From an uncultured Planctomycetota bacterium (GTDB lineage: Bacteria > Planctomycetota > UBA11346), in NCBI GenBank assembly GCA_903902515.1, contig CAIUVD010000091.1, positions 8,199 to 72,198 on the forward strand: DNA of 64,000 bases. The letters are read 5' to 3'. The notes beneath the pieces are model-generated. The model made no database searches. It saw nothing but the letters and a program-made list of their open reading frames with translations, and was not told where the DNA came from. Shown piece by piece: positions 1 through 15,431 of this stretch. The translations under genes were made by a program, and so were the position numbers. How positions within the stretch are numbered: position 1 is the stretch's first letter; each line of letters opens with the position of its first letter.

Positions 1-694
1 TGCGGTCGCCTACCTGGTCGGGATCGGTGAATCCGAACAAGGGATTGTAGGTGTGGGATCCTGCGGGATTGGCGAAATCCACGCAATAGAAAGGGACTCC
101 CTCTAGCTTGGCGGCACGCTCCATCCGCTGAAGCAAGGTGGGATCGCCCTTGGGATCAATAATGATGACCGGGGCCTTCACCTTGTGGACAGCCTGCAAT
201 GCCAGCAGTTCTGCGATGCGCGTCTTCCCCCGCTTTGTCATCCCGTAGATGAGCATGTGAACATTCAGATCTGATTCATCGATGCAGACGGGCCCAATCT
301 CCCTCCACTGCACACCCTGGATGCGGTTGTCGCCCTTCGTCCGTGGATCCTGATCGACGGCATCACCATCCATGCCTCCGAGTTCGGCCAGATCCACGGC
401 ATGCCGTCGCTGCCAGGCCGCACCTTCTCCCAGGTAGAGCTGCCCGGCAGGGGCTGCGGCCAACAGTTGTGGGACGGTCATCCGTGACCAGCGGCACCGG
501 CCTAGCTCTTGCCAATGGCGATGGTCCCGCCGGACCTGACGCCAACAGCAGACTGCCACACCGGCAGAGACCATGCCCACCACCACCTGTCCGATCGGGA
601 AAGCCTGCGTGACCAAGAGCGAGCACGGCGCCACCACTGCACCGACCGTGGAGATAACCGCTGGAGCGAAAAATGTTGGGATCTGCTTAGACAT
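1..694 (-). CDS. Type IV coupling protein-like ATPase (TraD/TraG/VirD4 family), N-terminal part; gene runs off the window start
   Basis: Hand-translated minus frame (not in ORF track because truncated): MSKQIPTFFAPAVISTVGAVVAPCSLLVTQAF...two N-terminal hydrophobic helices, Walker-A-like LIYGMTKRGKT, then APVIIIDPKGD ~25 aa later (matches the recalled V-DP-GD signature of TraD/VirD4 coupling proteins). ATG at 692-694, 3 nt after the upstream 4-TM ORF stop. Confidence 0.55.
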   Translation of the reverse strand, partial: MSKQIPTFFAPAVISTVGAVVAPCSLLVTQAFPIGQVVVGMVSAGVAVCCWRQVRRDHRHWQELGRCRWSRMTVPQLLAAAPAGQLYLGEGAAWQRRHAVDLAELGGMDGDAVDQDPRTKGDNRIQGVQWREIGPVCIDESDLNVHMLIYGMTKRGKTRIAELLALQAVHKVKAPVIIIDPKGDPTLLQRMERAAKLEGVPFYCVDFANPAGSHTYNPLFGFTDPDQVGDR

Positions 695-697
695 GGG

Positions 698-1345
698 TCA
701 CATCCTCGCCGCGGTCGCGGCACGCAGGGGATACAGCAGGGCTACGACCAGCAGGACAGCAGGTAGGAGCCACGGGGACAAGGGCGCGGCCACCGGAGCC
801 GAAATCAGCACTCCCATGAGGCACATGGTCATGCCTGCCATCCAGGCCCAGGTCACCCGCTGGGCATCGGTCGCCGGCTCACCACGTCGGAACAGGAGCC
901 AGGATTGGCGGCGACCGAGCAGCCACGCGACCAGCAGCTGCGGACTCGACGCCAGCAAAACGGCCAGGAAAACGTTCCCCCTGAGTCCAACGAGCACCAA
1001 CCAGGGCCTCACCGACCTTATTATCCTGTCATGAAGGGTCTCGCATGAGACCGTCAGGGCTACGAACAGATCGTGGGATTTTTCCTTGGCCTTATCCGGC
1101 AATGGCGTGGATTCTCGCCGCCTGGCCCAAGCTTGCGCAAAGGCTTGCTGACCCGGGCAGGCCATCGCAAAGGCCACCTCCGCCGAAATGGACCGTTCCA
1201 CTGCGTCATCTGGTAGCCCACATAGCCTCCGACCCTCGGGCAGCGCCATCACGATCCCGGCCATGAGGCCGACCAGGAGGAAAGACAGCGAATAGAGGCA
1301 TAGCCTCAACAGATACACGGCTTCGGTCATGGCTAGCGATCCCAA
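698..1345 (-). CDS. Hypothetical polytopic membrane protein (about 4 TM) between relaxase and T4CP genes
   Basis: 215-aa ORF with several long hydrophobic stretches. Tightly packed: overlaps relaxase stop and ends 3 nt before the T4CP start. Start may be the internal Met (MTEAVYLL, about 1330). Confidence 0.4.
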   Translation of the reverse strand: MGSLAMTEAVYLLRLCLYSLSFLLVGLMAGIVMALPEGRRLCGLPDDAVERSISAEVAFAMACPGQQAFAQAWARRRESTPLPDKAKEKSHDLFVALTVSCETLHDRIIRSVRPWLVLVGLRGNVFLAVLLASSPQLLVAWLLGRRQSWLLFRRGEPATDAQRVTWAWMAGMTMCLMGVLISAPVAAPLSPWLLPAVLLVVALLYPLRAATAARM

Positions 1346-2226
1346 TGCGGGTGATGGTTTCGGTGGCGCTCGTTTTGAGGTACTTCCAGCCGTCCGAGGT
1401 CATCATGGCCCTTGAACCCAAGGCGATCAGCACGCCAGCGCTCACCGTTGGACTTGCCGATATAATACCGAGGCCTTCCGCAGTTAGAGTGCTCGCGATA
1501 CAGGCAGAGCCCTGATTCAGCGAGGGCACTGGCATAGCCCTCGACGGACAGCTGGGTCGGAGGAAGTCCATCGAGGATAACCCGAGCATCCCGAGCGACT
1601 GTGTCTTTAACGGTCACCCGATCCCGTTGATGAGCCACATACCCCGTCCGGTCGGTAGGCCGAATACGAGGGCGAGATGGCTGGTGTTCACGATCTGGCA
1701 ATGACGCCAAGCCGAACCTACGTTCGAGATCTCGATCGATGCCGGGGGCGGCACGATGGCTGTGCTTGGCATGGTAGACATAGCCATCTCTGTTAACCCG
1801 AATGGCCACCAGGTGGTCGTGTGGATTGGCCTTCCCGTCTGCCGCCCGATGAGCGACCACCACAAAATCCCATTGGTCGACATCTGGCTTGGGGAAGGGA
1901 TCCAAGCCTCGCTTAACTCGTTGTTTGTTGAGCTTGGCCCAGTCGTCCTCCAGGTGGCTGCGCATGACCTCGCGGGCGACCTCGCCGCGGCGCTCTGCCG
2001 TCAGGCCCGCGTCCATGTCAGCCTGCTGGTAACTGATCGACCAATGCAGCACTGGATGGGAGAGGTGGGCAGCTGCGGCACGACTGGCAGCGAACTCCCG
2101 AGCCAATTCCCGGGCACTCCTCCCGCTCATCGTGCCGCCCACAATTTCCGGGGCCTGATCCTTCCTAAAACAGTAGTCCAGGAGCTGCCTAACACTCTTC
2201 CCGCCTCGATGCTGCTTGGTGATCAT
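1333..2226 (-). CDS. Relaxase / mobilization nuclease (MobA/VirD2-type, Relaxase family)
   Basis: N-term MITKQHRGGKSVRQLLDYCFRK is a typical relaxase start. NPHDHLVAIRVNRDG fits the relaxase HxDxxxHxH-type metal-binding motif. Start chosen at MITKQ (2226), overlapping the mobC stop; the longer ORF in the track (to 2238) is probably an over-extension. Confidence 0.7.
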   Translation of the reverse strand: MITKQHRGGKSVRQLLDYCFRKDQAPEIVGGTMSGRSARELAREFAASRAAAAHLSHPVLHWSISYQQADMDAGLTAERRGEVAREVMRSHLEDDWAKLNKQRVKRGLDPFPKPDVDQWDFVVVAHRAADGKANPHDHLVAIRVNRDGYVYHAKHSHRAAPGIDRDLERRFGLASLPDREHQPSRPRIRPTDRTGYVAHQRDRVTVKDTVARDARVILDGLPPTQLSVEGYASALAESGLCLYREHSNCGRPRYYIGKSNGERWRADRLGFKGHDDLGRLEVPQNERHRNHHPHWDR

Positions 2227-2669
2227 CAGACATCCCAAGATCCCGGTTTTTCTGAAGGATGGGGCTTGGGTTGCAAGACCGCCTCGACCTGCGCAGGGAT
2301 GCCGGCGAATCGGTCCGTGAAGGGTTGGCCAGGATCCTGGCCGACCAGTCTTCGGCGCAGTTGGATCACAGCCCGGGAGGCCTCGCGCACGGTCTCCCAG
2401 TCGGCTTCGTGACCCTGTCCCCCGTTGATGCGCTTGAGGGCCTGATTGAGGTTCGCCCCGATCCCCCTGAGCTGGGCGTTCGTGTCCTGGTCAATCCGGG
2501 CCGGGGGCGGGCTGACCTGGACCTCGAACACAACATCGCGAATCCAGGCACCGAGCGTGGCGTAGCCCGCTATAGCAGCCTTGGTATTAAGGTCGGCCAG
2601 CTCAGCGTCATTGACACCGAAGCCGGCGGTTTTCTTGCGGGGATTTCGGTCACGAACGATACGGGGCAT
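2226..2669 (-). CDS. mobC: MobC-family relaxosome accessory protein
   Basis: 147 aa, LRGIGANLNQALKRIN is the conserved MobC motif; lies immediately upstream of the relaxase gene on the same strand. Confidence 0.7.
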   Translation of the reverse strand: MPRIVRDRNPRKKTAGFGVNDAELADLNTKAAIAGYATLGAWIRDVVFEVQVSPPPARIDQDTNAQLRGIGANLNQALKRINGGQGHEADWETVREASRAVIQLRRRLVGQDPGQPFTDRFAGIPAQVEAVLQPKPHPSEKPGSWDV

Positions 2670-2840
2670 CTGTCAAAGGCCTGCAATGAACCAGCGCTGG
2701 TACTGCCACCGCTGGTTGGGGGTGATCGAGCCGGGGAATTTGCTCAACCAGGGGGATGCAAGGGGCGGCGAAGCCCCCTTGCCAAGCGCACCGACAAGCA
2801 GAGCCGTTAGGCTTAAGCTTGAGCGGTGCACAGCTTGCTC

Positions 2841-2997
2841 GCCTTCACGACGACGCCTGACCACTCGACCGGTCTGGACGCGCGGTGGCGTAGCGACGGC
2901 AGCCCACGACAGGCGCCTTTGGCGCATGCCGTGGGCTGCCGAGCGGAGACACCGCTGCGGACAGGACGGGAGAGTGGTCAGGCGTCGTCGTGAAGGC
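2841..2997. repeat. Large nested palindrome: perfect 26-bp arms (2841-2866 / 2972-2997) enclosing a perfect 12-bp inverted repeat (2897-2908 / 2930-2941) on the same centre (~2919). Candidate oriT or cruciform
   Basis: GCCTTCACGACGACGCCTGACCACTC and its exact reverse complement GAGTGGTCAGGCGTCGTCGTGAAGGC; inner CGGCAGCCCACG / CGTGGGCTGCCG around GGCGCCTTTGGCGC; directly upstream of mobC. Confidence 0.4.
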
Positions 2998-3037
2998 AGC
3001 CTACCCGTTGCCGTTGCCTGGAGCTTGAGCCGAACGC

Positions 3038-3385
3038 TCATGGCGCTTGATCATCGAGCTGAGGTGCGCGTTGCGGTGACGGCAACTGCGGCCCATCGTC
3101 CAATCCGGTGATGACAACAGGCTCGTCATCACCGGATTTTGCTGGACGAATTCTCGTGGATATCCACCGAGCAACGTAAGCCAGGGACTCAGCCTGCGAA
3201 ACGGCCTCAGCGAGGATCTCATCGTGCTGCTGCCGTCGCCGCTGTCCCAATGACTGCTGCGCACTGGCGAGATCTTTGGCCAGACCTGCAGACAGGGTGT
3301 TGATCAGGCCGAGCGCTACGCCGATGGTTGCGCGAGTGCCAGGGATGTCAGGAGCCAGAACGGCGCGAAGGATGGACGGTCGCAT
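3038..3385 (-). CDS. Hypothetical protein downstream of the integrase (possible recombination directionality or regulatory factor)
   Basis: 115-aa ORF, island-like codon usage (lower GC3 than chromosomal genes), no recognisable motif. Confidence 0.3.
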   Translation of the reverse strand: MRPSILRAVLAPDIPGTRATIGVALGLINTLSAGLAKDLASAQQSLGQRRRQQHDEILAEAVSQAESLAYVARWISTRIRPAKSGDDEPVVITGLDDGPQLPSPQRAPQLDDQAP

Positions 3386-3466
3386 AATGGCTGCCTAGCC
3401 TATGACCGGCTCAGACTCTCGCTGATCATTTTAGACTTCCCGTGACTTCCCCAGACTTCTTAAGGA

Positions 3467-4645
3467 TTAAGCCGTCGCCACTACCTCCTGGATTGGCTGC
3501 CGCTGAGCTGCACTTGCCGGCGCTAATTGACGCAAAATGAATGCCCCCCGCGGCCACTCTGAGACCGCGTGACGAAAGATCATTTGCTGACGAGAGTAAC
3601 CTTGGGTCGTCAACAACGACTCATGTCCGGCCCACGCAGCGACCTGGATAGCGTTGACGTCGGCGGCAAGCAGCATGGAAATCCAGGTGTGCCTTGTGCT
3701 ATGAGGAGTTCGGCCTTGAGGATCTACTCCACAGCGCTTCAGATACGACTTAAAGCGGAGTCCATGGCGCTTCCCGTCACAGTCACGGTCGTCGGGATCC
3801 GCCGCAATAAAGCCCGACAGCTTTGCGCGAGCACGGAGGATCTCAGCCAACTCCTCCTGTAGGGGAAGGAACCGCTCTTTGCCTCGTTTCAGTTTATAGA
3901 CCCCTGGTTGATGGCAGACCTCAATAACCTTGGCCTCCCAACGGATATCAGACCAGCGCAGGTGCATCGCCTCACCAATCCGACATCCCGTGTATGCGAG
4001 CAAGGCAAAACGCAGGAAATAGGGATCGGACTCTCGATCGCGTGCCAGAAGAGCCCGCAACTCGTCCACATTGAAGACGGCTTTATTCTTCTGAATCACC
4101 GTTGTCCGCTTGATGCCCGCGATCGGATTGAAGGTCAGACGCCTTGTGTTGATAGCATGGCGGACCACCGAACGAATCTCCTGGAGCCAACGATTGCGCG
4201 TGTGAGCCGTTACGGTCAGCACATCGATCCGGTCTTCGGCAAAAGTCTTGCCCGAATCAAGGAACCGGCGGACCAGGGACGGGAAGATCGGAGACTTCAT
4301 GTCCCTAGCCCCAAGGTCTGCAAGGGCCTGGATCAGGCGCTCGTGCTCGCGGACGTAGGGCTCTGAGCGTTGTGCCGACCTCAAATTTTCGACCAGTTCC
4401 ATTCCGACCGTGCGCCAGTCGGCATCTGTGGCCGAATCCAACCCAGTCGTGAAACGGGCACTGGTCATCTGGCCCCAGCGGCGGGCATCGGCTATCTGCC
4501 CATCTGCAAAGGAACGGCTCACCCGCCGATTGGTCGTGGGATCCCGAACCTGGACTTCATAGCGAGCCCCTTCCCGAATTCCGCGTTTTTTCCAGATGTC
4601 CCGGATAATGACGCCTCGGATTCCTGAGTTGGCGAGCTTGGGCAT
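3467..4645 (-). CDS. int: Tyrosine site-specific integrase (phage integrase family)
   Basis: LLAYTGCRIGE (catalytic Arg box I) and HSTRHTW (box II His-x-x-Arg) plus the C-terminal Tyr region. True start taken as MPKLANSG (4645). The longer ORF in the track runs through the att repeat (DLGLEPRT reads a tRNA T-arm) and is an artefact. Confidence 0.85.
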   Translation of the reverse strand: MPKLANSGIRGVIIRDIWKKRGIREGARYEVQVRDPTTNRRVSRSFADGQIADARRWGQMTSARFTTGLDSATDADWRTVGMELVENLRSAQRSEPYVREHERLIQALADLGARDMKSPIFPSLVRRFLDSGKTFAEDRIDVLTVTAHTRNRWLQEIRSVVRHAINTRRLTFNPIAGIKRTTVIQKNKAVFNVDELRALLARDRESDPYFLRFALLAYTGCRIGEAMHLRWSDIRWEAKVIEVCHQPGVYKLKRGKERFLPLQEELAEILRARAKLSGFIAADPDDRDCDGKRHGLRFKSYLKRCGVDPQGRTPHSTRHTWISMLLAADVNAIQVAAWAGHESLLTTQGYSRQQMIFRHAVSEWPRGAFILRQLAPASAAQRQPIQEVVATA

Positions 4646-4847
4646 GGGATCGTCCTTAAGGGTAGGGCCGTGGATAGGCCGTGGATAGCTCAGTGTCCCA
4701 CCATAGACCACCATCCCGAGGAATTTCTGAGGTCCGCTCGGGATCGCAGCCAGTGGGGGCCGTCGGCCATTATAGCCGACTGAACAATGACTTAACGTCA
4801 TTTTATCGATCCTCAGCGATCCCCTGCAATCCCCCGTGTCGTGAATT

Positions 4848-4890
4848 CTTAATCCCTGGGTCCTAGGTTCGAGTCCTAGATCGCGCACCA
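4848..4890 (+). repeat. att-like repeat copy 1: tRNA 3'-end-like fragment (T-stem CTAGG/CCTAG, T-loop TTCGAGT, 7-nt acceptor 3' strand, discriminator A, CCA). No 5' half present
   Basis: CTTAATCCCTGGGTCCTAGGTTCGAGTCCTAGATCGcgcacca. No complementary acceptor 5' strand (GCGCGAT) within 90 nt upstream, so not a complete tRNA. 34/36 identical to 15164-15199. Confidence 0.6.
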
Positions 4891-4896
4891 TGATAA

Positions 4897-4935
4897 GCCC
4901 CTGCAATCTAAGTGGTTGCAGGGGCTTTGTGTTTT
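4897..4935 (+). terminator. Rho-independent terminator (10-bp perfect stem, 9-nt loop, T-rich tail) immediately after the tRNA-like att copy
   Basis: GCCCCTGCAA tctaagtgg TTGCAGGGGC TTTGTGTTTT. Confidence 0.6.
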
Positions 4936-5144
4936 GGGGGTTTGATGGTGTTTTTCACTGGGCTAGCCCCGGGGATCATTCCTTAAAATGACGAAAGCCA
5001 CCCATACAGGTGGCCACGCATCCCCGATGCCGCGAGGAGCCAGAGGCGTTTTTTAGGGGAAATCTAGACCATACTGGACCAAAGCTGCTGAATAACACAG
5101 CGACGAAACCGACAAAGATAATCTATATAGCTTAGGCATTCAGA

Positions 5145-5855
5145 TTATACTTCACCAAGCGCGTTCAGCCGCTTCTTACGATCTTCCCAATCCGGCATTA
5201 ATCGCTGCAATAATCGCCAAAATTTTGGTGAATGGTTGTGTTCTGCGAGATGGCAGAGCTCATGCATCACCACGTAGTCGATGCACTCGCGGGAGGCCTT
5301 GAGGAGCTCCAGATTGAGAATGATCCGACCAGCCGGGGTGCAACTCCCCCAGCGGTGGGTCATGCGACGGACGAGCAGGGTGGGGAGAGGGATGCCTTCC
5401 ACTGCTGCCAGTCGATGGCAAGCCTTCAAGCGCTCTGCGAACACCTCTCCAGCTCGATCTGCATACCACGTCCGCACCAGGTGGCCGAGAACGGCCGGAG
5501 ACGGGTGATCGGGCGTCGTGACGTCCAAATACCCGCGCCGCAGAACAACTCCCGCGATCGGCCCGGGAATGGCCCGCAGGCGGTATTGCCGCCCCAGGTA
5601 ACGGTGCGTTTCGCCCGGGACATACTCCCGGGGAGACTGAAGGGGGTGGAAACACTCAAATTCACGCCACGCCTGCCGGATCCACGCACCCCGCTTGCAG
5701 ACTTTGGCCCGGATGCGCTCCAACGGTGTTCCGATGGGCGCGGTCACCTCGACGGCCAGGTCGGGCCGGACCGTGATGGCGAGGGTCTTGGCCGGTCCAA
5801 ACCGGTAATGGTAGGGGATCTCGGTAGAGCCCCAGACCACGCGATCGGCCAGCAT
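5145..5855 (-). CDS. M48-family / DUF45 (YgjP-like) zinc metallopeptidase of the kind commonly linked to type I R-M loci
   Basis: HELCHLAEHNH (HExxH) near the C-terminus. N-term IPYHYRFGPAKTLAITVRPDLAVEVTAP resembles YgjP/DUF45. Start at MLADRV (5855) overlaps the hsdR stop (5857). Confidence 0.7.
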   Translation of the reverse strand: MLADRVVWGSTEIPYHYRFGPAKTLAITVRPDLAVEVTAPIGTPLERIRAKVCKRGAWIRQAWREFECFHPLQSPREYVPGETHRYLGRQYRLRAIPGPIAGVVLRRGYLDVTTPDHPSPAVLGHLVRTWYADRAGEVFAERLKACHRLAAVEGIPLPTLLVRRMTHRWGSCTPAGRIILNLELLKASRECIDYVVMHELCHLAEHNHSPKFWRLLQRLMPDWEDRKKRLNALGEV

Positions 5856-5856
5856 C

Positions 5857-8800
5857 TCAGCCTCCCGCCTGCTTCTTGAGGGTGGACACCACCTGCGCCA
5901 AGAGCTGGTCGATCTCGGCCGTCGTCCAACCGATCCCATGTGCTGAGCGCAGGTCAAACAGGGCATCATCGACCGCATTCTCGACGTCCTTGATCAGGTC
6001 TGGACTGTGGACCCAGTCGACGATGCGAACCTTGGGTTGCACCCGCTCCTCGATCTCCAAGGCGAGCGTTGATGCGAGTTGGCGAAGGTCGACCCCGCTC
6101 CCCACCTCTTGGGCGCGGCTCTTGGTAACCTCAACCTGCTCCAGAGCGGTCCCCATCAGGCCGAAGAACGCTCGTGCAGCCCGGTGGCGTTCACCTTCCA
6201 ACTCAATCGGTAGCTCGTCCGCGTGCCCTTGGCGCACCTGGGCGAGGTAGACCTCAACCTTCTTCAGGTATTCCAGTTCACTGATGCGTTCATGGCGGTA
6301 ATCGTCAATGGTTTGTTGCACCAACTTAGCAAAACGACCGTAAAATTCTTCGTCCTCCCCCATCTTCTCGCGGCAGGTTTTGGCCAGTCGGCTGGCGATG
6401 GTGTCAGCCTTCGACGCCGCGCTCTCGTGGGTCGCCACTTCTTGGTCCATTGCCTTCACGTCGAAGAGGCTGAATTCCGGGGTGATGATCTTCACCTCTG
6501 GAGCCTGAATGTGGTCGTCCAACAGCTTGCGGATTTGTTTTTCGTATTGGCTGTAGTCCACCCGGTCGCCGTACCTGCTCTGGACCGAGGTTCGCAGGCC
6601 GATGAAGCGCTTGAAATCCCGTTTAAAAACCTCCAGCCGTTCGCGCGGCACCAGGGCGTAGACCTGCTCGGATGCCAGGGCCGTGGCTAGGGTCTTTTGG
6701 AAGGTCCGCAGGGTCGCGTAGAAGGACTCTCGGCGATCCTCAGGTGCAAGGTGCCGCTCCATTGCTTCATTGTCGAGCTGGTTGCAGACCTCTTTGAAGA
6801 TCGCCCAGACATCGCTGTGGTGCTGTGGCAGGTCGGCGATCACCGAGCTGACGTCAGTCACCGCCCCGCCCAGGTCGACGTCGTTCTGATCGAAGCCCGC
6901 CAGGGCATCGTATGTCTTCATCGAGGCGTTGAGCTCACCAAGCACCCCACGGTAGTCCACGATCAGGCCATGATCCTTGCCCGGGAACAGCCGGTTCACG
7001 CGTGCGATCGCCTGGAGGATGTTGTGCTCCTTGAGCGGCTTATCGATGTACAGCACGGCATTACGCGGCTCATCGAACCCGGTCAGCAACTTGTCGACCA
7101 CGATCAAGATCTCGACGTCGCTGTCTTCCTGCCCGAAGGCGGCCTTGAGCTGGCGGTTGTAGACATCCTCCGTCTTGAACCGCTTCATCATCTCGGCCCA
7201 GAACTGGCCAACCAGGGATTCATCCTCTTCGACCGCCTCGTCCTCGCCCCGAACATCCGGGGCAGACATGATCACTTCCGCCTGCACGAGGCCGAATTCC
7301 TGCATGAATTTCCGGTAGCGGATGGCGCTGGTGCGGTTGCGTGCGGCGACCTGGCCCTTGAGCCCGCGCCCCTGGAAGTTGGCTTTGAAGTGGGTGCTGA
7401 TGTCGAAGGCGATCAGCTTGATGCGTTGTTCGGCTTCACTCAGCACCTCGCGCCGCGACATCGTGCGCTTGAGGTCTGCCCGCTGCTTCTCGCTCAGGCT
7501 CGTGGTCAATCGCTCGAACCACTGATCCAGGGCCCGCTCGTTCTGCTCCAGCAAGGCCATCCGTCCCTCGTACACGAGGGGTGCCACGGCCTCGTCATCG
7601 ACGGCCTGACGCATGGTGTAGCTGTGGATGAAGCCGCCAAATTTCTGTGCGGTCTGCTTTTCCTTCTTCAGGAGAGGGGTGCCGGTGAAGGCGATGTAGC
7701 ACGCATTGGGGAACACCCGTCGCATCTTGGCGGCAAAGCCCCCATAGTTCGACCGGTGGCCTTCATCGATCATCACGAAGATGTTCGGGCTCTCATCCCG
7801 GGCCTGATTCTTGTCCATGACCGCCGCGAACTTGTTAATGATCGCGGTGATGACGCTGGCCTTGCCCTCGGTGATGAGCTTGGCCAGGTGCTCGCCCGTC
7901 CGTGCCCGTTCCGTGGTTTTGCCGCAGGCCTCAAAGGTTCGCGACAACTGAATGTCGAGGTCGTCGCGGTCGGTAACCAGCACCACACGTGGGTCGGTGA
8001 TGCCAGGGTGCAGGGCGATCGCCTTGGCCAGCATGACCATGGTTAGCGATTTTCCGGACCCCGTCGTGTGCCAGACGACCCCGCCCTCGCGTGCGCCCTC
8101 GTGGAGCGTGGTCACGCGGGCGACCGTCGCCGCCACGGCGAACCACTGCTGGTACCGGGCGACCTTGCGCACCCCAGCATCGAACACCACGGCGTCGCGG
8201 ATGAACGTCACCAAGCGATCTTGGCGCAGCATGGCCCAGAGCGTGCGGTCCTGCTCGGTTGGCAGGCGATCACCGGCCTTGGCCCGTTCCTGCCACCAGA
8301 GCCGCGCCTCACGGTAGGCGTCCACTCGCTTGGAATCGGGAGGCGCGAAGAGCTTGGCCTCGACGTCATCGGGCAGCCGCTGGTTGGCAGAGGCATGGAC
8401 CGCCTGCTCGTGCCGTCCCTCTTCCTTCCAGACGCTCCAGAATTTCAGCGGCGTCCCCACCGTGCCATAGCGGCAGGAATTCACGCTCGTCCCCAGCACC
8501 AGTTGCGCGAATTGGAAGAGGTGGGGGATGTGATCGTCCTTCTGATAGGTCACGACCTGCTTGATGGCCTTCTCGATGGCCTTGTCCCCAACGTCGCCGT
8601 CCTGGTCGCGACGTTTACATTCGATGACCACCACGGGGATGCCGTTGATGAACAGCACCAGATCAGGTCGGCAGGTCTCGTGGGAGCGCGACCGCTCGAC
8701 GGCGAACTCATCGCTGACGTGGTAGACGTTGCGCTCCGGCCGCAGCCAATCGATGAAGTGCACCTGCCGACCCTTGCGGTCGCCCTCCACTTCAACGTCG

Positions 8801-9117
8801 ACGCTCGTCCCCAGGGTGAGCAGGTGGTACACCGCCTCGTTGGTCCGCACCAAGCCGTCATACGGCACCTCGGTCAGTCGACGGATGGCCTCCCCCAGGT
8901 TCACATCCGAGAACGGCAGCGACTGCCCACGAGCCTCCACCCGGTTGTGCTCTGCCAGCCAGGGCTTCAGCACCCCGGTCAACACTACCTGGTCTTGCCG
9001 GCCTCCACGCAGGGCCAAGGCCTCTTCCCGGCTGAGGTACTGCCAGCCCAAGGCGCAGAGCACCTGCACCGCAGGGATCTGGCTGTCGAGATCTTCGAGG
9101 TAGGGCGAGAGCGCCAT
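5857..9117 (-). CDS. hsdR: Type I restriction enzyme R subunit
   Basis: 1086 aa, SF2 helicase motifs TTGSGKSLTMV (Walker A) and FVMIDEGHRS (DEAH-like); size and architecture typical of HsdR. Confidence 0.9.
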   Translation of the reverse strand: MALSPYLEDLDSQIPAVQVLCALGWQYLSREEALALRGGRQDQVVLTGVLKPWLAEHNRVEARGQSLPFSDVNLGEAIRRLTEVPYDGLVRTNEAVYHLLTLGTSVDVEVEGDRKGRQVHFIDWLRPERNVYHVSDEFAVERSRSHETCRPDLVLFINGIPVVVIECKRRDQDGDVGDKAIEKAIKQVVTYQKDDHIPHLFQFAQLVLGTSVNSCRYGTVGTPLKFWSVWKEEGRHEQAVHASANQRLPDDVEAKLFAPPDSKRVDAYREARLWWQERAKAGDRLPTEQDRTLWAMLRQDRLVTFIRDAVVFDAGVRKVARYQQWFAVAATVARVTTLHEGAREGGVVWHTTGSGKSLTMVMLAKAIALHPGITDPRVVLVTDRDDLDIQLSRTFEACGKTTERARTGEHLAKLITEGKASVITAIINKFAAVMDKNQARDESPNIFVMIDEGHRSNYGGFAAKMRRVFPNACYIAFTGTPLLKKEKQTAQKFGGFIHSYTMRQAVDDEAVAPLVYEGRMALLEQNERALDQWFERLTTSLSEKQRADLKRTMSRREVLSEAEQRIKLIAFDISTHFKANFQGRGLKGQVAARNRTSAIRYRKFMQEFGLVQAEVIMSAPDVRGEDEAVEEDESLVGQFWAEMMKRFKTEDVYNRQLKAAFGQEDSDVEILIVVDKLLTGFDEPRNAVLYIDKPLKEHNILQAIARVNRLFPGKDHGLIVDYRGVLGELNASMKTYDALAGFDQNDVDLGGAVTDVSSVIADLPQHHSDVWAIFKEVCNQLDNEAMERHLAPEDRRESFYATLRTFQKTLATALASEQVYALVPRERLEVFKRDFKRFIGLRTSVQSRYGDRVDYSQYEKQIRKLLDDHIQAPEVKIITPEFSLFDVKAMDQEVATHESAASKADTIASRLAKTCREKMGEDEEFYGRFAKLVQQTIDDYRHERISELEYLKKVEVYLAQVRQGHADELPIELEGERHRAARAFFGLMGTALEQVEVTKSRAQEVGSGVDLRQLASTLALEIEERVQPKVRIVDWVHSPDLIKDVENAVDDALFDLRSAHGIGWTTAEIDQLLAQVVSTLKKQAGG

Positions 9118-9118
9118 G

Positions 9119-10045
9119 TCAGGTCGTCCAGAAGGAGTGCGTACGCCAGTTGGCAGGCAGGCCCATGGCCACCTGCCAGCGCGGGTGGCTGTCCATCTCG
9201 GTCAAAAGCGCCTGTACGCGACCCGACCAATGGCTTCCTGCCTGGTGATGCCGCAGCAGGTAGCGCAGGATCAGCAACACGCCGTACACGTGATGTCGAT
9301 CCGGGAGGGCCGGTGGAATCCAGCACCGCTCTTCGGTCGTCGGGCTGCGGGGGTTGCGCGGTTCGGGCATGGTGGGCTTGATCGCCAAATCCCGATTCCA
9401 CAGCCGCCCATGGTGGGCACAGAGGTTGCGCACGTATGACAGGGTATGCAGCCAGTCACCAAAGACACGGTGGTGCACGCGATACGATCCGGCAACTGCT
9501 CGCTTATCGTCATGGTGCAGGCCACGAAACAGCACCGACAGCGACCCGAGCGACATGACCTCAGACGCCACCCACAGGGGGAGCGACGGGAAGCCGTCGT
9601 AGGTGTTTTCGTAATGGAGGATGAAGGTCTCCTCCGAACGCTCAGCCTCCCGGTGCAGCTTGTCGATCCACTCAGGGTGACGGAACTGCGGGTGGAAGTT
9701 CACGGAGGCTTCGTGCCCGTAGGGGCCGTAGGCGTGCACCAAATGGTAGGTCACCGTGGTGCGCACGGCAATCTCGACCCGTTCGATTGCATCCATGACC
9801 AGCAGGCGGAGACGGCGGTCAAACTCATAGAGCCGCTCCGCCTCTGCCAGGCTTGCGGTGTCTTCGAAGCGATCGCCAGGAACCAGCTTAAACAGCAGCC
9901 AGTAGGCACTGAGGCGGTAATAGCTCACGCGGCTGAGCAATGCCTCGGCCCCTCGCCGGTTGCCCACGTTCAGCCCACGGGCCTCCAGCAGGTCCACCTG
10001 CTGGGCGAAGGTCAGGGCGGTTTTGTTGTAGGGCTTGGTGCTCAT
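9119..10045 (-). CDS. Abi-like protein (Abi_2 / AbiD-AbiF family abortive-infection protein)
   Basis: 308 aa, N-terminal LSRVSYYRLSAYW motif characteristic of the Abi_2 family; ends 2 nt before hsdR start. Confidence 0.7.
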   Translation of the reverse strand: MSTKPYNKTALTFAQQVDLLEARGLNVGNRRGAEALLSRVSYYRLSAYWLLFKLVPGDRFEDTASLAEAERLYEFDRRLRLLVMDAIERVEIAVRTTVTYHLVHAYGPYGHEASVNFHPQFRHPEWIDKLHREAERSEETFILHYENTYDGFPSLPLWVASEVMSLGSLSVLFRGLHHDDKRAVAGSYRVHHRVFGDWLHTLSYVRNLCAHHGRLWNRDLAIKPTMPEPRNPRSPTTEERCWIPPALPDRHHVYGVLLILRYLLRHHQAGSHWSGRVQALLTEMDSHPRWQVAMGLPANWRTHSFWTT

Positions 10046-10068
10046 GCCAGGTTTCCCGGCGTGCGCGT

Positions 10069-10126
10069 AAAAACAAAAAAGCCGCCAAGGTTACGCATGC
10101 CCCTTGCGGGGTATAGGCGTGGCGGC
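10069..10126 (-). terminator. Candidate rho-independent terminator between hsdS and abi (minus strand): GC stem GCCGCCA/TGGCGGC with inner CCCC-gcaa-GGGG hairpin, then U-run
   Basis: Plus-strand AAAAACAAAAAA (10069-10080) is the minus-strand T-tract directly 3' of the stem 10081-10087/10120-10126. Confidence 0.45.
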
Positions 10127-10328
10127 TGTGTTGGAGGTACGATGCCAGATGCGTGGCTGTCGCGCAACATGGCAAAAAACAACACGCTCTCCCGTATCCG
10201 TGTCTCGATCTGCGACACAAGGAGCTCATCTATGAAGACAGTAATCATGACAGCCCCTGCCTTGGCCAGCCCCCAGGGGCGTGGATCGTAGAAGTTGCCA
10301 AGACAGGCGGACATGGCCATGGGTGCTC

Positions 10329-11597
10329 CTAGGCCGCCTGGACCTTCACGCGGCGTTTGCCGGTGAGGAGCTGTTGCATGAGGCCCTTTTTCTGGGTGCG
10401 AAAAGCGGAGAGCAATCGTTCGAGCAACTCGATTTCCCGATCGACGATGTCAAATAGATCGGCGATGCGCCGTTGTTCGTCTAACTCCGGCAGGGGGATA
10501 GGCAACTGTGCCAGGTCATCAAAATAGATGCGGATGCGCACGCCGCCGGCGCCTGCGGTGTCCATGAATGAAGACCATGCATCCGAACGCCGAAATGCGT
10601 TGAAATAGCGATGGTCGATTGCCTCATCACGGCAGCGGAACACCACATAATCCGGTGAAACGAGCGCATCTTCCTGCCCCAGCCATTGGCAGATAGAGCC
10701 AATGTTGATACGCATTGGATTATAGGCGAACCAGTGATTTTTGACGATCAGGTAGCGGGATAAATCGTCGGCCATGACATGCTCCTTCATGGGGATCATG
10801 CCTTCTGCTTTGTTCACAGCCCTGACGGATTCCGAACCAAGGCGCCCATTATTTCGGACGGAGCTGGCCTCGGCGACGTCGCCGATAGTGCGCTTCCGCC
10901 ACGGCTTGGTAAACCCAGGAAACCTCCGCTTCCCCGTCAGCAACTGCTGCATGAGGCCTTGGCGACGTTTACGCGAGGCCTTCAGGAGATTTTCCAGGTA
11001 AAGCGAGGCAGTCTCCCAGTGCTCAAGAATTCGCGAGATTTCTTGTTGCTCGGAAAAAGAAGGAATTGGGATCCTGAGCGCTAGGAGGTCATCCTGCGTA
11101 ATATTTTTCATAGAATCGCTCGTCCCGGTTGCCTGGGATGAGAGCCGGTGACGAAGTGTCGGCAATTGCAGTAGGTGGGAAAGCCACTTGGTGGAATACT
11201 TGACCCCAGAGCGAGGCTTTAACTGCCAAAGTTTATCGGGAAGATATGTCTTTGGACAGTCCTCTCGCACTAACGCACTAGCGCCGACGAGATCAGGGGT
11301 ATTACAACGGCTGACGATAAGGTGACCCTTGAGCACAGGCTCGCTTACTCGTGCAACATCCTCGGGGATAACGACCTTGGCGGCATTTTTTTTGAACACG
11401 CCGTAAGACACTGCGCTGATCTTCAGGACGGTTATTTCACCTGTGCTTGCTGGCCGATCTTCACCATTAACGCTCACTCCAGAGTCTAGAGAGCCAACAA
11501 GATCAGAAACCTTGCCAGCTTTCCAGTCTGTAGGAACGAGTCCAAGATGCGGCACTTCCTTGAAAGCTGCTGTCACAGCCCCAACTCCTTGAGGCAC
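10329..11597 (-). CDS. hsdS: Type I R-M specificity subunit, two target-recognition domains
   Basis: 422 aa with the conserved inter-TRD repeats RQGLMQQLLTGKRR and KKGLMQQLLTGKRR. Confidence 0.85.
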   Translation of the reverse strand: MPQGVGAVTAAFKEVPHLGLVPTDWKAGKVSDLVGSLDSGVSVNGEDRPASTGEITVLKISAVSYGVFKKNAAKVVIPEDVARVSEPVLKGHLIVSRCNTPDLVGASALVREDCPKTYLPDKLWQLKPRSGVKYSTKWLSHLLQLPTLRHRLSSQATGTSDSMKNITQDDLLALRIPIPSFSEQQEISRILEHWETASLYLENLLKASRKRRQGLMQQLLTGKRRFPGFTKPWRKRTIGDVAEASSVRNNGRLGSESVRAVNKAEGMIPMKEHVMADDLSRYLIVKNHWFAYNPMRINIGSICQWLGQEDALVSPDYVVFRCRDEAIDHRYFNAFRRSDAWSSFMDTAGAGGVRIRIYFDDLAQLPIPLPELDEQRRIADLFDIVDREIELLERLLSAFRTQKKGLMQQLLTGKRRVKVQAA

Positions 11598-13072
11598 CCA
11601 GCCATCTCCGCCCGGACCTTAACCAATTCCGCCTCTAAATCAGCGATTTCCTTACCTACCTTGGCCAAATCCACCTCTTCCTCAGCCTCGAATGTGTCCA
11701 CATACCGGGGAATATTGAGGTTGTAATCGTTCTCGGCGATCTCTTCCAGCGTCGCCTTGTAGGCGTACTTCTCGACCGTCTTGCGGATGCGGTAGGTCTC
11801 AACGACCTTCTGGACCTCGACGTTGACCCGCAGGTAATTCTGGTTTTTCCCATCCTGGAACTCGCGGGAGGCGTCGATGAACAGCACATCCTTCCGGCTG
11901 CCACGATCACGGCGGAAGATCAGGATGGCCGCTGGGATTCCGGTACCGAAGAACAGGTTCGGAGGCAGGCCGATCACCGCATCCAGGAGGTTCTCCTCGA
12001 TCAGCTTTTGCCGAATCGCGCCTTCGGCCCCGCCGCGGAACAGCACGCCATGGGGCACGACCACACCAACCCGTCCGGTGTCCTTCACCGTGGTCTCGAT
12101 CATATGGCTAATGAAGGCGTAGTCGCCCTTGCTCTTGGGGGGCACGCCCCGGTGCCAGCGGTTGAATCGCTTGGCCTCATCGTCCGCCTTGTCCGCCCCC
12201 CACTTGTCGAGGCTGAACGGCGGATTGGCCACCACGACGTCGAAGCGCATGAGTTGGTCGTTGGCCAAGAGCTGGGGCTCCAGCAGGGTGTCCCCGGCCT
12301 CGATGCGGGCATTCGCCACATCGTGCAAGAACATGTTCATCATGCACAACGCCCAGGTCGTGCGGTTGTTCTCCTGACCCCAGATCGAGATGTTGTCGGA
12401 ATTAGCCTCGCGGGCGCAGCGCAGCAGCAGCGAGCCCGAGCCGCACGCCGGGTCGCAGATGCGCTCGCCAGCCTTGGGTGCCAGCAGCTTGGCCAGGAGG
12501 ATCGAGACCTCCTTCGGGGTGTAGAATTCCCCGGCCTTTTTACCGGCGTCGTCGGCGAACTTGCCGATGAGGAATTCGTAGGAGTCGCCGATGACGTCGT
12601 TGCCCGCCAGTCGCGAGGGACGCAGGTCGAGCTTGTTGAAGTCCTCCAGGAGGTTTTTTAGCACCTTGTTGCGATTCTTGGTCGATCCCAGGCGGGATTC
12701 GCTGTTGAAGTCAACGTTGCGGAAGACGTCCTTGAGTTTGACTTTGTTGGCCAGTTCGATGGCTTCTAAGGCCTTGTTGATCGTCTCGCCAACGCTGGCC
12801 CCTTCGCGCAGGGCATAGACCTCGGCAAAGCTGGATTTCTCGGGCAGAACGAAGCGCTCACGGTCCATCTTGCGACGGATGCGCTCCTCATCGCCCTTGA
12901 ACTCCTTGGCGAGCTCGTCGCGGCGCTCGCGCCACACGTCACTAATATACTTCACGAACAGCATCGTGAGCACGTAGTCCTTGTAGTCGGCCGCATCGAT
13001 CTGGCCGCGAAAGGAGTCGCAGGCCTGCCAGAGGATACGATTGACGTCGTCTTGGGTGGTGGTGTCGGTCAT
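11573..13072 (-). CDS. hsdM: Type I R-M N6-adenine DNA methyltransferase subunit
   Basis: DPACGSGSLL (SAM motif I) and VVANPPF (motif IV NPPF). Confidence 0.9.
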   Translation of the reverse strand: MTDTTTQDDVNRILWQACDSFRGQIDAADYKDYVLTMLFVKYISDVWRERRDELAKEFKGDEERIRRKMDRERFVLPEKSSFAEVYALREGASVGETINKALEAIELANKVKLKDVFRNVDFNSESRLGSTKNRNKVLKNLLEDFNKLDLRPSRLAGNDVIGDSYEFLIGKFADDAGKKAGEFYTPKEVSILLAKLLAPKAGERICDPACGSGSLLLRCAREANSDNISIWGQENNRTTWALCMMNMFLHDVANARIEAGDTLLEPQLLANDQLMRFDVVVANPPFSLDKWGADKADDEAKRFNRWHRGVPPKSKGDYAFISHMIETTVKDTGRVGVVVPHGVLFRGGAEGAIRQKLIEENLLDAVIGLPPNLFFGTGIPAAILIFRRDRGSRKDVLFIDASREFQDGKNQNYLRVNVEVQKVVETYRIRKTVEKYAYKATLEEIAENDYNLNIPRYVDTFEAEEEVDLAKVGKEIADLEAELVKVRAEMAGCLKELGL

Positions 13073-13084
13073 GTTCGGCTCGAT

Positions 13085-13680
13085 TTATCGTGAAGTGTTA
13101 GTGAGGAAGGAGAGGCCAATGCTGCGGTTGCGCAGGGCAACGGCCTGGGTCATGCGCCCCAAGATCTCTTGCTCCTTTTGCTGGAGCTCGCTGAGATGGG
13201 CGATGTACCCCTGCTGGTGCATCGGTGGCAAGGGAATGCAGATGGCCTCGAATAGGGCCCGTTGAACTATGGGAGTACCGGCTCCCGTGCGAGCCTGGCT
13301 GATGGCGGCTTGCGTCGGCGCCTGGTTCAGAAACCAGGCCAGGTATTCCGGATCAACAAGGCCCGGCCGAGGCCTGAGCACGAAGAAAGCCGCCGTAGGC
13401 ACCGCGTTAATGGCACATTGGTCAATTCTGGCCGCGCGGTTTTTTTCTCCGCGTGACATGAAGAGGACATCACCCCCCATCACGCAGTACCCCTCGGCCC
13501 GTTCAGGAAGGTCCATCCGCGTGTCATGGTCTTCCCCGATGGAAACGGGTCGACCTGACTCGTGGACGTGGCGTGGTTGAATGACCAGAAATCGGCCGTT
13601 GTCCTGGTGCTGGACCGCCCCTGGGTTGGAAAACCCAGGGGTGATTTCAGCCGCCTCATCGAGACGGGCATGGTTCATGT
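13085..13680 (-). CDS. Solitary half HsdS (single target-recognition domain plus conserved C-terminal helical region)
   Basis: About 199 aa from MNHARLDEAAEITPGF. TRD-like GDVLFMSRGEKNRAARIDQ...AVPTAAFFVLRP, then IPLPPMHQQGYIAHLSELQQKEQEIL typical of HsdS conserved regions. 13 nt upstream of hsdM. Confidence 0.6.
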
Positions 13681-14075
13681 GATGTCTTTCACCCATACTT
13701 TCAGGGGATTGTAGGGGGTTCCGATGGGCCAGTTCACCAGGTACCGACGACTGGTCGCCGGAGACTCGCCAATCCAAACGATGGCCGCTTCCGGCTGAAA
13801 AGGAGGCGGGTGGTTCTCCCACGCGAGGCGTGCAGTGATCTTGGCTCCCTCTTCGCTGTTCGGGGAGGTAAAGACCCCGTCGGCCCAGGCAAAATCCAGG
13901 TCACGGTACCGGACGAGCTGAACGCCGGGAACGCCCATAGCCGCCACGATGTATTGATCGACTGCCGTGGCGGACTTTACCCAAATCACTCGCCCTGCCC
14001 GCCAGCCGCGCTGGCGGGCAGGGTGCCACTCGGTGTTGTTCGCATGCGTCGCATAGAGCTCTTGGAAGGTCATCA
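13675..14075 (-). CDS. Hypothetical Trp-rich protein, no recognisable domain
   Basis: About 136 aa from MMTFQELYATHANNTEWHPARQRGW; stop overlaps the half-hsdS start; begins about 8 nt after the GIY-YIG gene stop. Confidence 0.4.
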
Positions 14076-14083
14076 TGGCAGCC

Positions 14084-14574: not shown

Positions 14575-15163
14575 TATGGCCGACAGAGAGAACGCCTCGC
14601 TGTCGCCATAATGAGTAGTGTAAGCACTCCTAATTTTTTTCAAGTTTTTTTCCGGTGTCTCCATTACTTGATATTGTCGTCGGCAGTCGCGAGGGGCCTA
14701 GGTGACAGATCTGTGCATTTTGTATATACAATTTACACATGATGTATACCTGAGGTCCGCAGCGCCACTGATGGCGTTTGTTATTATGTAAGTAATATCA
14801 TTGGGCCTCATGCATTACTCGCTGTAGTAAACCATTTAAGGCTGGGCGCAGCCGAAAGGGGAACTGGGGCTGGCCCTCTGTATCCCCTTGCTGACTCACA
14901 AGCGCCCGAGGTGTCCGCTCAGCCGTCTCCGAGGGCTGCGGGAGGGCGGCTAGGTCCGACCTTCAGCAGCCTCATTTGTCCAAGGTCCGAATTCCTAATG
15001 ATCCGTGATTTCTAGGCAGGTCAGCTCCGCCGGCCCAGCGAGAAGGCTCACCAAGCAAGTGCCTGTCGGCAATCCCTGCACCCCCCAGCTCGAGAACGTA
15101 TCTTTTTCCCGTTCGCTTTGGGTGCTGGAGTGGCTGGTGCTGTGCCCACTAATCAATTTGTCC

Positions 15164-15199
15164 CTTAATCCCTGAGCCCTAGGTTCGAGTCCTAGATCG
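15164..15199 (+). repeat. att-like repeat copy 2 (34/36 identical to 4848-4883), followed by divergent 3' sequence ATCTCCA
   Basis: CTTAATCCCTGAGCCCTAGGTTCGAGTCCTAGATCG; no complete tRNA can be folded around it. Confidence 0.6.
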
Positions 15200-15431
15200 A
15201 TCTCCATTATAAACATCTGAAAATCAATGTTTTGCAGTGGATTTTTGCCTCTGGGCTCTCGACCCTTGCTGGCCAAATTAAGATGCCTGTTGGGCGGCAG
15301 AACAACTCCAAACCTGACAGCCCCCTTAGCAGAGATGGCCTTACGGCCATCCCTGCTGGGGGCATTGTCCTCGTCCGATGGACCTCACCACCGCAAGGCC
15401 GGTGGAGCCCTCGGCAGAAGAAGACCAGGCT

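What the first reader, a model, noticed from the sequence alone, without database searches (positions are those of the whole stretch)
1..4935. A second element, an integrative mobilizable element, sits left of att copy 1: tandem accretion at one att site
The tyrosine integrase (3467-4645), MobC, relaxase, a 4-TM protein and a T4CP-like ATPase all lie to the left of repeat copy 1, outside the interval bracketed by the two repeats, and run off the window. So copy 1 is shared by two elements. One element carries the mobilization/integration genes. The other, the R-M island, carries no integrase of its own and could be mobilised in trans by the neighbour. The tRNA-like copy 1 plus the terminator at 4897-4935 looks like an attP-borne tRNA 3' end with terminator that regenerated the tRNA on integration.
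Basis: inference. Interest (0 to 1): 0.55.

Follow-up and report, generated by a model that had tools for sequence, protein, structure and literature searches.

The report
Mobilizable island beside decayed sister island
The left end of the window holds an integrated, mobilizable DNA element of a planctomycete, inserted at a lysine tRNA gene next to the decayed remnant of a related element that now carries only restriction-modification genes; this is a known way for genomic islands to pile up and is ordinary.

Summary
All on the minus strand lie a TraD-type coupling protein (1-694, runs off the window), a membrane protein, a MobA/VirD2-type relaxase, a MobC/NikA-like protein, a conserved small ORF and a tyrosine integrase (3467-4645). 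They end at repeat copy 1.

Copy 1 (4845-4890) matches the last 46 nt of Planctomycetota tRNA-Lys(CUU) at 46 of 46 positions and is followed by a terminator. Copy 2 (15164-15247) is a decayed version.

New evidence for tandem accretion: the 218 nt just left of copy 2 are 89% identical to the 3' end of the left element's coupling-protein gene and the sequence after it. The restriction-modification (R-M) island is therefore a sister element that lost its transfer and integration genes by deletion.

A relative (integrase 76.5% identical, same gene order) is a complete 18.7-kb element. It has an intact tRNA-Lys at the cargo end, a partial copy at the integrase end, and no type IV secretion genes.

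The left end of this window's element could not be reached, so its intact tRNA is inferred. Mobilisation of the R-M island is doubtful, because the integrase-side arm next to copy 2 is gone. This is a new member of a known kind.

The parts
1..694 (-). Element A: 5' part (231 codons) of a TraD/VirD4-type coupling protein (T4CP) gene. The full gene encodes 630 aa and continues left of the window.
   Evidence: Translation. PF01935 hit at the Walker A motif. Full length is seen in L001 and L005, which are 100% identical to the window. TIGR03743 SXT_TraD hit, E 2.4e-58.
698..1330 (-). Element A: 210-aa membrane protein lying between the relaxase and the T4CP in all relatives.
   Evidence: Hydropathy segments at about 4-33, 109-139 and 162-208. 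Syntenic homologues at 31-52% identity in L027, L029, L030, L032, L033 and L034. No family hit.
1333..2226 (-). Element A: MobA/VirD2-type relaxase, 297 aa.
   Evidence: PF03432, E 7.7e-9. The motif NPHDHLVAI is visible in the translation. 59-77% identical in relatives.
2226..2669 (-). Element A: MobC/NikA-like relaxosome accessory protein, 147 aa.
   Evidence: PF21983 and PF05713. The exact protein occurs on 8 metagenome contigs.
2841..2997 (.). Nested inverted repeats in the intergenic region upstream of mobC: 41-nt arms enclosing 21-nt arms. Candidate oriT (inferred).
3038..3385 (-). Element A: conserved 115-aa ORF next to the integrase. Possible excision factor (inferred; no family hit).
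   Evidence: 63-71% identical and syntenic in L027, L032, L033 and L034. No Pfam or NCBIfam hit.
3467..4645 (-). Element A: tyrosine integrase, 392 aa. Gene callers start it at 4801, giving 444 aa.
   Evidence: PF00589, E 1.7e-19. The motifs R (TGCRIGE), HSTRH and GHESLLTTQGY are visible. 76.5% identical over 392 aa to the integrase of the complete relative L027/L040.
4765..4844 (.). Integrase-side arm (P arm) of element A's right attachment site.
   Evidence: 77% identical over 77 nt to the arm next to the partial tRNA-Lys in L040 and L027.
4845..4890 (+). Repeat copy 1: the 3'-terminal 46 nt (anticodon loop to CCA) of tRNA-Lys(CUU). It is attR of element A and attL of island B.
   Evidence: 46 of 46 identical to 12 intact Planctomycetota tRNA-Lys(CUU) genes. 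Not an intact tRNA.
4895..4935 (+). Intrinsic terminator following copy 1.
   Evidence: 12-nt perfect stem plus T tract. Similar terminators follow related att copies in L034, L040, L015 and L022.
5145..13822 (-). Island B cargo: YgjP-like peptidase, HsdR, Abi_2, HsdS, HsdM and an HsdS-like fragment.
   Evidence: Pfam hits.
14845..14946 (-). Conserved non-coding block that lies downstream of the T4CP gene in this element family.
   Evidence: 92% identical to L005 6486-6585. 80-82% identical to L029, L030, L031 and L033.
14944..15162 (-). Island B: remnant of a T4CP gene. It comprises the last 55 codons plus stop (14995-15162) and 51 nt downstream, and abuts copy 2.
   Evidence: 89% identical over 218 nt to L001 3857-4074 and L005 3643-3860. 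The in-frame translation matches the T4CP C-terminus.
15164..15247 (+). Repeat copy 2: decayed tRNA-Lys 3' half (15164-15206, 6 mismatches) plus decayed terminator. It is the outermost, oldest att copy.

Best explanation
**What it is.** Window 1-4890 is the right-hand 4.9 kb of an integrative mobilizable element (element A) of a freshwater planctomycete. Its backbone reads T4CP, membrane protein, relaxase, MobC/NikA-like protein, candidate oriT region, small ORF, tyrosine integrase, arm, att core.

**How it integrates.** The integrase recombines an element-borne copy of the 3' half of tRNA-Lys (anticodon loop to CCA, plus a terminator) with the chromosomal tRNA-Lys(CUU) gene. The intact tRNA then ends up at the cargo end of the element, here to the left and outside the window. 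A partial copy ends up next to the integrase; this is copy 1.

**How it would transfer.** After excision, the relaxase and MobC would nick an oriT. The element's own coupling protein would deliver the DNA to a mating pore supplied by another element.

**The R-M island (B, 4891-15247).** B is the remnant of a sister element of the same family that integrated earlier. A deletion removed about 1.7 kb of its T4CP gene together with its relaxase, mobC and integrase genes, right up to the att core. What remains is the cargo, 317 nt of backbone and a decaying outer att copy (copy 2).

**Order of events.** Element A then integrated into the functional tRNA end that B had supplied. This is tandem accretion of an IME with a remnant resembling a cis-mobilizable element (CIME).

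**Shown:** gene identities, tRNA identity of the repeats, the T4CP remnant, and the architecture of the complete relative.

**Inferred:** A's left boundary, the order of events, oriT, activity of the element, and the helper pore.
For: - **Backbone genes and families:**
- **Copy 1 is a tRNA end:** 46 of 46 identical to Planctomycetota tRNA-Lys(CUU), starting in the anticodon loop.
- **T4CP remnant abuts copy 2:** 89% identical over 218 nt and in frame. A further 102 nt are 92% identical and colinear once an IS66 insertion in A is removed. That insertion is 2,621 nt with an 8-bp target duplication CCCCCTGC.
- **Complete relative L027/L040:** integrase 76.5%, ORF 69%, MobC 64%, relaxase 59% identical; full-length T4CP 70%. 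It has a 104-nt direct repeat (88%) spaced 18,722 nt apart, an intact tRNA-Lys(UUU) at the cargo end, a partial copy plus terminator next to the integrase, housekeeping genes outside, and no T4SS genes.
- **Second relative L034:** integrase next to a partial tRNA-Lys(UUU).
- **Conserved arm:** the integrase-side arm is conserved between A and L040.
- **Composition:** GC is 57-65% over 1-18 kb and 65-75% further right.
- **Left of the T4CP** on the 141-kb contig lie IS66, then a 1259-aa methyltransferase and an HsdS. This is cargo of the same type as B's.
- **Literature:** the three-step route (integration, decay to a CIME, integration of a second IME) is described in PMC5704250.
Against: - The intact tRNA-Lys and left repeat of element A were not seen. 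No DNA beyond 4.1 kb left of the window could be retrieved.
- No empty-site genome was found for comparison.
- No excisionase, oriT or helper T4SS is identified.
- No complete chromosomal mating-pore system has been found in Planctomycetes, and conjugation within the phylum has not been reported (bioRxiv 10.1101/2024.01.22.576637). Transfer is therefore hypothetical.
- The identical scaffolds found in several metagenomes may simply be one population and do not show mobility.
Confidence: 0.8

Rival explanations
1. The left element is part of a larger integrative conjugative element (ICE), with its own type IV secretion genes lying further left, outside the window.
For: A coupling protein is present, as in ICEs. 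The left boundary is unseen.
Against: The complete relative L040 (18.7 kb) has no T4SS genes. Island B's full cargo side has none. The 8 kb left of the T4CP on the 141-kb contig carries only IS66 and R-M genes. IMEs that encode their own relaxase and coupling protein are a described class (PMC5704250).
Confidence: 0.07
2. The left element is itself a truncated or rearranged remnant with no attL or intact tRNA on its left, for example after IS66-mediated rearrangement. It would then be immobile, and 'tandem' would describe only history.
For: An IS66 element sits 52 nt beyond the T4CP stop codon. The left end was not observed.
Against: All six backbone ORFs are intact and syntenic with relatives. 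The IS66 has a clean 8-bp target duplication, and the flanking sequence continues colinear with B, which indicates simple insertion. R-M cargo follows, as expected.
Confidence: 0.1
3. The mobilization genes belong to an integrated plasmid segment with boundaries unrelated to the tRNA repeats.
For: The same MobC-relaxase-membrane protein-T4CP module (T4CP 55% identical) lies on a roughly 21.9-kb circular ParA/ParB replicon that also carries a type I R-M system (L029/L030).
Against: In the window the module is contiguous with an integrase and an att arm. Both are conserved with the tRNA-bounded element L040. No ParA/ParB or replication genes are seen in the window or in the gene map to its left.
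Confidence: 0.03
4. A and B did not accrete in this chromosome. The composite of a decayed element plus an IME was acquired as one piece from a previous host.
For: Transfer of composite CIME-ICE tandems has been observed elsewhere and cannot be excluded for such arrays (PMC5704250).
Against: Copy 2 and its terminator are heavily decayed and lack the integrase-side arm, so recombination between A's attL and copy 2 seems unlikely. This reading is compatible with the best explanation for everything except where accretion happened.
Confidence: 0.12

Closest known systems
IME-CIME tandem arrays formed by site-specific accretion (ICESt1/ICESt3-CIME of Streptococcus thermophilus; IME_Sag2603_tRNAlys of S. 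agalactiae), as reviewed in PMC5704250
   Same: A tyrosine-integrase element sits at the 3' end of a tRNA-Lys gene. [quoted passage not shown] The evolutionary route is the same three steps: integration, decay, second integration.
   Different: The phylum is Planctomycetota, not Firmicutes. The proteins are unrelated to the streptococcal modules beyond family level. The decayed partner has also lost the arm next to its outer att copy, so it may not meet the CIME criterion of two usable att sites.
IMEs that encode their own relaxase and VirD4/TraD-type coupling protein but no mating pore (strategy I in Figure 3 of PMC5704250)
   Same: Relaxase, accessory protein and T4CP are present. There are no T4SS genes in the complete relative or in any visible part.
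   Different: No helper element is known. Complete mating-pore systems have not been found in planctomycete chromosomes.
tRNA-targeting tyrosine integrases whose identity block starts in the anticodon loop and runs to the 3' end of the tRNA (sublocation classes of Williams 2002; recalled from memory, not read here)
   Same: The repeat starts at tRNA positions 31-34 and runs through CCA. In the relative it continues through the terminator.
   Different: The crossover position is not determined. The identity block extends about 50 nt beyond the tRNA into the terminator.
Defence islands carried on chromosomally integrated mobile elements (PMC10201445, abstract seen)
   Same: Cargo is type I R-M plus Abi_2 in B, an R-M system in A, and a 2122-aa STAND NTPase in L040. 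A contig that carries the mob module beside a differently placed integrase has SIR2.
   Different: No defence function was tested here.

Membership tests
Integrative mobilizable element (IME) | Encodes its own site-specific recombinase for integration and excision | tested here: met
   PF00589 tyrosine integrase at 3467-4645 with the catalytic motifs present. No excisionase was recognised.
Integrative mobilizable element (IME) | Carries a relaxase and/or oriT for mobilization | tested here: met
   PF03432 relaxase and a MobC/NikA-like protein. TraD-type T4CP. The oriT is only a candidate.
Integrative mobilizable element (IME) | Lacks a complete mating-pore (T4SS) gene set | tested here: inconclusive
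   None in window 1-4900, in the 8 kb further left (gene map), in island B, or in the complete relative L040. The far-left part of A is unseen.
Integrative mobilizable element (IME) | Bounded by attL and attR direct repeats at a specific target | tested here: inconclusive
   attR (copy 1 plus the conserved arm) is met. Both ends are seen in relative L040.
Integrative mobilizable element (IME) | Excises and transfers with a helper element | not testable with these tools
   Needs junction reads, PCR or mating assays.
Cis-mobilizable element (CIME) - the R-M island | [quoted passage not shown] | tested here: met
   No integrase or mob genes lie between 4891 and 15163. Only a 55-codon T4CP remnant remains.
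Cis-mobilizable element (CIME) - the R-M island | Retains functional attL and attR sites | tested here: inconclusive
   Copy 1 is perfect. Copy 2 has 6 mismatches in 43 nt, and the arm that flanks copy 1 and the L040 attR is replaced by the T4CP remnant.
Integrative conjugative element (ICE) | Encodes a full T4SS, including a VirB4/TraC-type ATPase | tested here: not met
   Not found in any visible part or in the complete relative. The unseen left part of A leaves a small residual possibility.

The most novel reading that the evidence does not exclude
These elements form a previously undescribed and rare family: only 13 close T4CP homologues turned up among 5.8 billion clustered proteins. They are planctomycete IMEs that target tRNA-Lys and mainly ferry defence genes. 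They carry their own coupling protein, a dedicated membrane protein and a conserved 90-100-nt non-coding block downstream of the T4CP gene. That block is shared with a 21.9-kb plasmid and could be the oriT or a regulatory RNA. If the family is active, it would point to a still unidentified conjugation route in a phylum where conjugation between members has not been reported. The deletion that ends at the att core in island B might be an integrase-mediated event at a secondary site.
Probability: 0.25. Interest if true: 0.5.

Novelty: new member of a known kind. Interest (0 to 1): 0.35.

Why it matters
It gives a clean, sequence-documented case of island build-up by tandem accretion at a tRNA gene in Planctomycetota. 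Mobile elements and conjugation are barely characterised in that phylum. It also explains how an R-M and abortive-infection island came to sit there without an integrase. The mechanism itself is well known from Firmicutes and Proteobacteria, so this extends existing knowledge rather than changing it.

Tried and rejected
**Attempts to reach or compare the left end**
- Exact-protein look-up of the 392-aa integrase and of HsdR found nothing on record.
- The 141,626-nt contig that matches the window's gene order has no retrievable DNA, only a gene map.
- A genome-contig scan with the 22-nt att core found 15 loci, 12 of them with intact tRNA-Lys(CUU). None came from the source genome and none shares flanking genes with the window. 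Neither the left end nor an empty site could be obtained.
- The look-up of P0001 (T4CP) gave only a 3.2-kb contig without DNA.
- L020, a partial tRNA-Lys copy in MAG JAYVTR01, showed no integrase of this family in its 260-nt flank.

**Searches that found nothing**
- IMG/VR scans with the T4CP alignment and with the integrase found no relatives, so there is no phage link.
- Rfam found no family at either repeat.
- No homologue was found for the right flank of copy 1 beyond the terminator, or for the right flank of copy 2.

**Readings rejected**
- Copy 1 as an intact tRNA.
- A plasmid-derived segment with other boundaries.

**Considered but not run**
- A protein search with the IS66 transposase. 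It would have extended the gene map by about 4 kb, but without DNA the tRNA would still be invisible.
Full report
**1. Observation**

The left 4.9 kb of the window carries six colinear ORFs on the minus strand.
- A TraD/VirD4-type coupling protein (T4CP) whose first 231 codons occupy 1-694. The gene runs off the window. It has a Walker A motif (GMTKRGKT), a PF01935 hit and two N-terminal hydrophobic segments.
- A 210-aa protein with about four hydrophobic segments at 698-1330.
- A MobA/VirD2-type relaxase at 1333-2226 (PF03432).
- A MobC/NikA-like protein at 2226-2669 (PF21983, PF05713).
- A 115-aa ORF at 3038-3385 with no family hit.
- A tyrosine integrase at 3467-4645 (PF00589, E 1.7e-19).

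The direct repeat is real. Copies lie at 4848-4931 and 15164-15247, 76% identical over 84 nt, with a 22-nt exact core. The terminator after copy 1 has a 12-nt perfect stem at 4895-4927 followed by a T tract.

The interval between the repeats holds YgjP, HsdR, Abi_2, HsdS and HsdM, and no recombinase. GC content is 57-65% over 1-18 kb and 65-75% further right.

An independent 141,626-nt assembly shows the same gene order across copy 1. Several scaffolds are 99.9-100% identical to window 1-2824. The junction is therefore not an assembly artefact.

**2. What the repeats are**

Neither copy is an intact tRNA (ARAGORN; Rfam).

A scan of 185,579 species genomes with the 22-nt core returned 15 loci, 13 of them from Planctomycetota MAGs. 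Twelve carry an intact tRNA-Lys(CUU) at the match.

Copy 1 (4845-4890) matches positions 31-76 of that tRNA, from the anticodon loop to CCA, at 46 of 46 positions. Copy 2 has 6 mismatches in its 43-nt tRNA part, and its terminator hairpin is degraded.

The host is thus very probably a planctomycete. The repeats are displaced 3' halves of its tRNA-Lys(CUU) gene, so the 5' half must lie to the left.

**3. Extending left**

Scaffolds L001 and L005 are 100% identical to the window's left end and extend it by 1.7 and 4.1 kb. They complete the T4CP gene at 630 aa; it hits TIGR03743 SXT_TraD with E 2.4e-58.

They also show an IS66-family element of 2,621 nt with three ORFs. It is inserted 52 nt beyond the T4CP stop codon and has an 8-bp target duplication, CCCCCTGC.

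The gene map of the 141-kb contig continues with a 176-aa ORF, a 1259-aa HsdM_N/N6_Mtase protein and an HsdS. No DNA further left could be retrieved. The left end of this element is therefore inferred, not seen.

**4. The key new result**

L001 3857-4074 covers the last 167 nt of the T4CP gene and 51 nt downstream. It matches window 15161-14944 at 89% identity. The match ends two bases from copy 2.

The remnant translates in frame to the last 55 residues of the T4CP, with the stop codon conserved.

The sequence on the far side of the IS66 in element A (L005 6486-6585) matches window 14946-14845 at 92%. Once the IS is removed, 317 nt of island B are colinear with element A.

The R-M island therefore descends from a sister element of the same family. 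A deletion removed most of its T4CP gene, its relaxase, mobC and integrase genes, and the integrase-side arm, right up to the att core. This is direct evidence for two successive integrations of related elements at one att site.

**5. Architecture of the family**

The T4CP has only 13 close homologues among 5.8 billion clustered proteins.

The relative L027/L040 shares the gene order. Identities are integrase 76.5% over 392 aa, small ORF 69%, MobC 64% and relaxase 59%; its full-length T4CP is 70% identical.
- Next to its integrase lies a partial tRNA-Lys(UUU) 3' half plus terminator.
- Walking along the contig revealed an intact tRNA-Lys(UUU) 18,722 nt away at the cargo end, and a 104-nt direct repeat at 88% identity.
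- The identity block runs from the anticodon loop through the terminator.
- Genes outside the repeats are housekeeping. Genes inside are the backbone plus cargo, including a 2122-aa STAND NTPase. There are no T4SS genes.

L034 repeats the pairing of integrase and partial tRNA-Lys.

The arm between the integrase and copy 1 (4765-4841) is 77% identical to the corresponding arm in L040.

The family layout is therefore: intact tRNA-Lys, cargo, T4CP, membrane protein, relaxase, MobC, small ORF, integrase, arm, partial tRNA. This matches what is visible of element A and what remains of B.

**6. Mechanism**

Shown:
- gene identities;
- the tRNA origin of the repeats;
- the T4CP remnant;
- the architecture of the complete relative.

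Inferred:
- The sister element B integrated first, displacing the native tRNA 3' end and terminator to 15164-15247, where they decayed.
- B's own attP-borne tRNA end and terminator (copy 1) completed the tRNA.
- B then lost its mobility module by deletion.
- Element A integrated into the functional tRNA, which pushed copy 1 next to A's integrase.

The perfect conservation of copy 1, set against the decay of copy 2, fits this order. It corresponds to the three-step accretion route described for IME-CIME tandems (PMC5704250).

Transfer would need a mating pore supplied in trans. No such helper is known. Conjugation between planctomycetes has not been reported, and no complete chromosomal mating-pore system has been found in the phylum, although chromosomal relaxase and T4CP pairs have been noted (bioRxiv 10.1101/2024.01.22.576637).

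**7.

- The terminator after copy 1 is most simply the attP-borne end of B's ancestor, not of the left element.
- Mobilisation of the R-M island by the neighbour is doubtful. Copy 2 is mutated and has lost its adjacent arm entirely.
- The intact tRNA to the left remains a prediction.

**8. Rivals**

- *An ICE with T4SS genes further left.* This is unlikely given L040, B and the gene map.
- *A truncated element without attL.* This cannot be excluded. The clean IS66 insertion and the intact ORFs argue against it.
- *A plasmid-derived segment.* The same mob module does occur on a roughly 21.9-kb circular ParA/ParB replicon (L029/L030). Here, however, it is contiguous with an integrase and an arm conserved with a tRNA-bounded element.
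- *Acquisition of the composite as one piece.* This remains possible.

**9. Verdict**

This is a well-supported, ordinary case of tandem accretion: an IME beside a decayed sister element at tRNA-Lys, in an under-studied phylum. It is a new member of a known kind. Interest is modest.

Noticed in passing
window 14845-14946; L005 6486-6585; L029 5004-5090; L030 12610-12696; L031 2961-3047; L033 5684-5767: A non-coding block of about 90-100 nt downstream of the T4CP gene is 80-92% identical across elements whose T4CP proteins are only 55-79% identical. It contains a conserved imperfect palindrome, GGGGAAC.GGGGCCAGCCCC.GTTCCCC. It could be an oriT, a regulatory RNA or a terminator. Four sequences are too few to test covariation.
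   Followed up: partly
L005 3866-6486 (left of the window, 52 nt beyond the T4CP stop codon): A 2,621-nt IS66-family element with three ORFs is inserted in element A. It has matching terminal inverted repeats and an 8-bp target duplication, CCCCCTGC. Island B shows the uninterrupted site.
   Followed up: yes
L029 and L030 (contigs of 21,946 and 21,932 nt from two metagenomes): The gene orders are circular permutations of each other. This suggests a roughly 21.9-kb circular replicon with ParA/ParB, a resolvase, a type I R-M system and the same MobC-relaxase-membrane protein-T4CP module. It would be a plasmid counterpart of the integrated family.
   Followed up: partly
window 4891-4935; L034 about 1436-1489; L040 1015-1070 and 19737-19795; L015, L022, L026 downstream of tRNA-Lys: Very similar terminators (ATAAGCCCCTGCAAG...CTTGCAGGGG, then T's) follow tRNA-Lys ends of two different isoacceptors (CUU and UUU) in different organisms. 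The terminator may travel with the elements' attP rather than being native to each chromosome.
   Followed up: partly
L015 5356-6837; L020 260-319 with L026 2680-2755: Other Planctomycetota MAGs also show islands at tRNA-Lys(CUU). L015 has an HsdM homologue 1.2 kb downstream of the tRNA. MAG JAYVTR01 has an intact tRNA on one contig and a partial 3' copy on another. The gene looks like an integration hotspot.
   Followed up: partly
window 2841-2997: Nested inverted repeats (41-nt arms enclosing 21-nt arms) lie in the 369-nt intergenic region upstream of mobC. This is a second oriT candidate.
   Followed up: no
L013 about 3219-3270: Immediately after the terminator of tRNA-Lys(CUU) lies an inverted copy of the tRNA's 3' end (tggtgcgcgatctagg).
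   Followed up: no
window 18658-18737 (minus strand): Two stem-loops just downstream of tRNA-Gly(GCC) give a sub-threshold Rfam match to psRNA14 (35.8 bits against a gathering score of 60). They are probably just terminators.
   Followed up: no
window 15161-15164: The deletion that removed B's mobility module ends within 2-3 nt of the left edge of the att identity block. This raises the possibility of an integrase-mediated event at a secondary site. No convincing similarity to the core was seen at the corresponding point of A's T4CP gene.
   Followed up: partly
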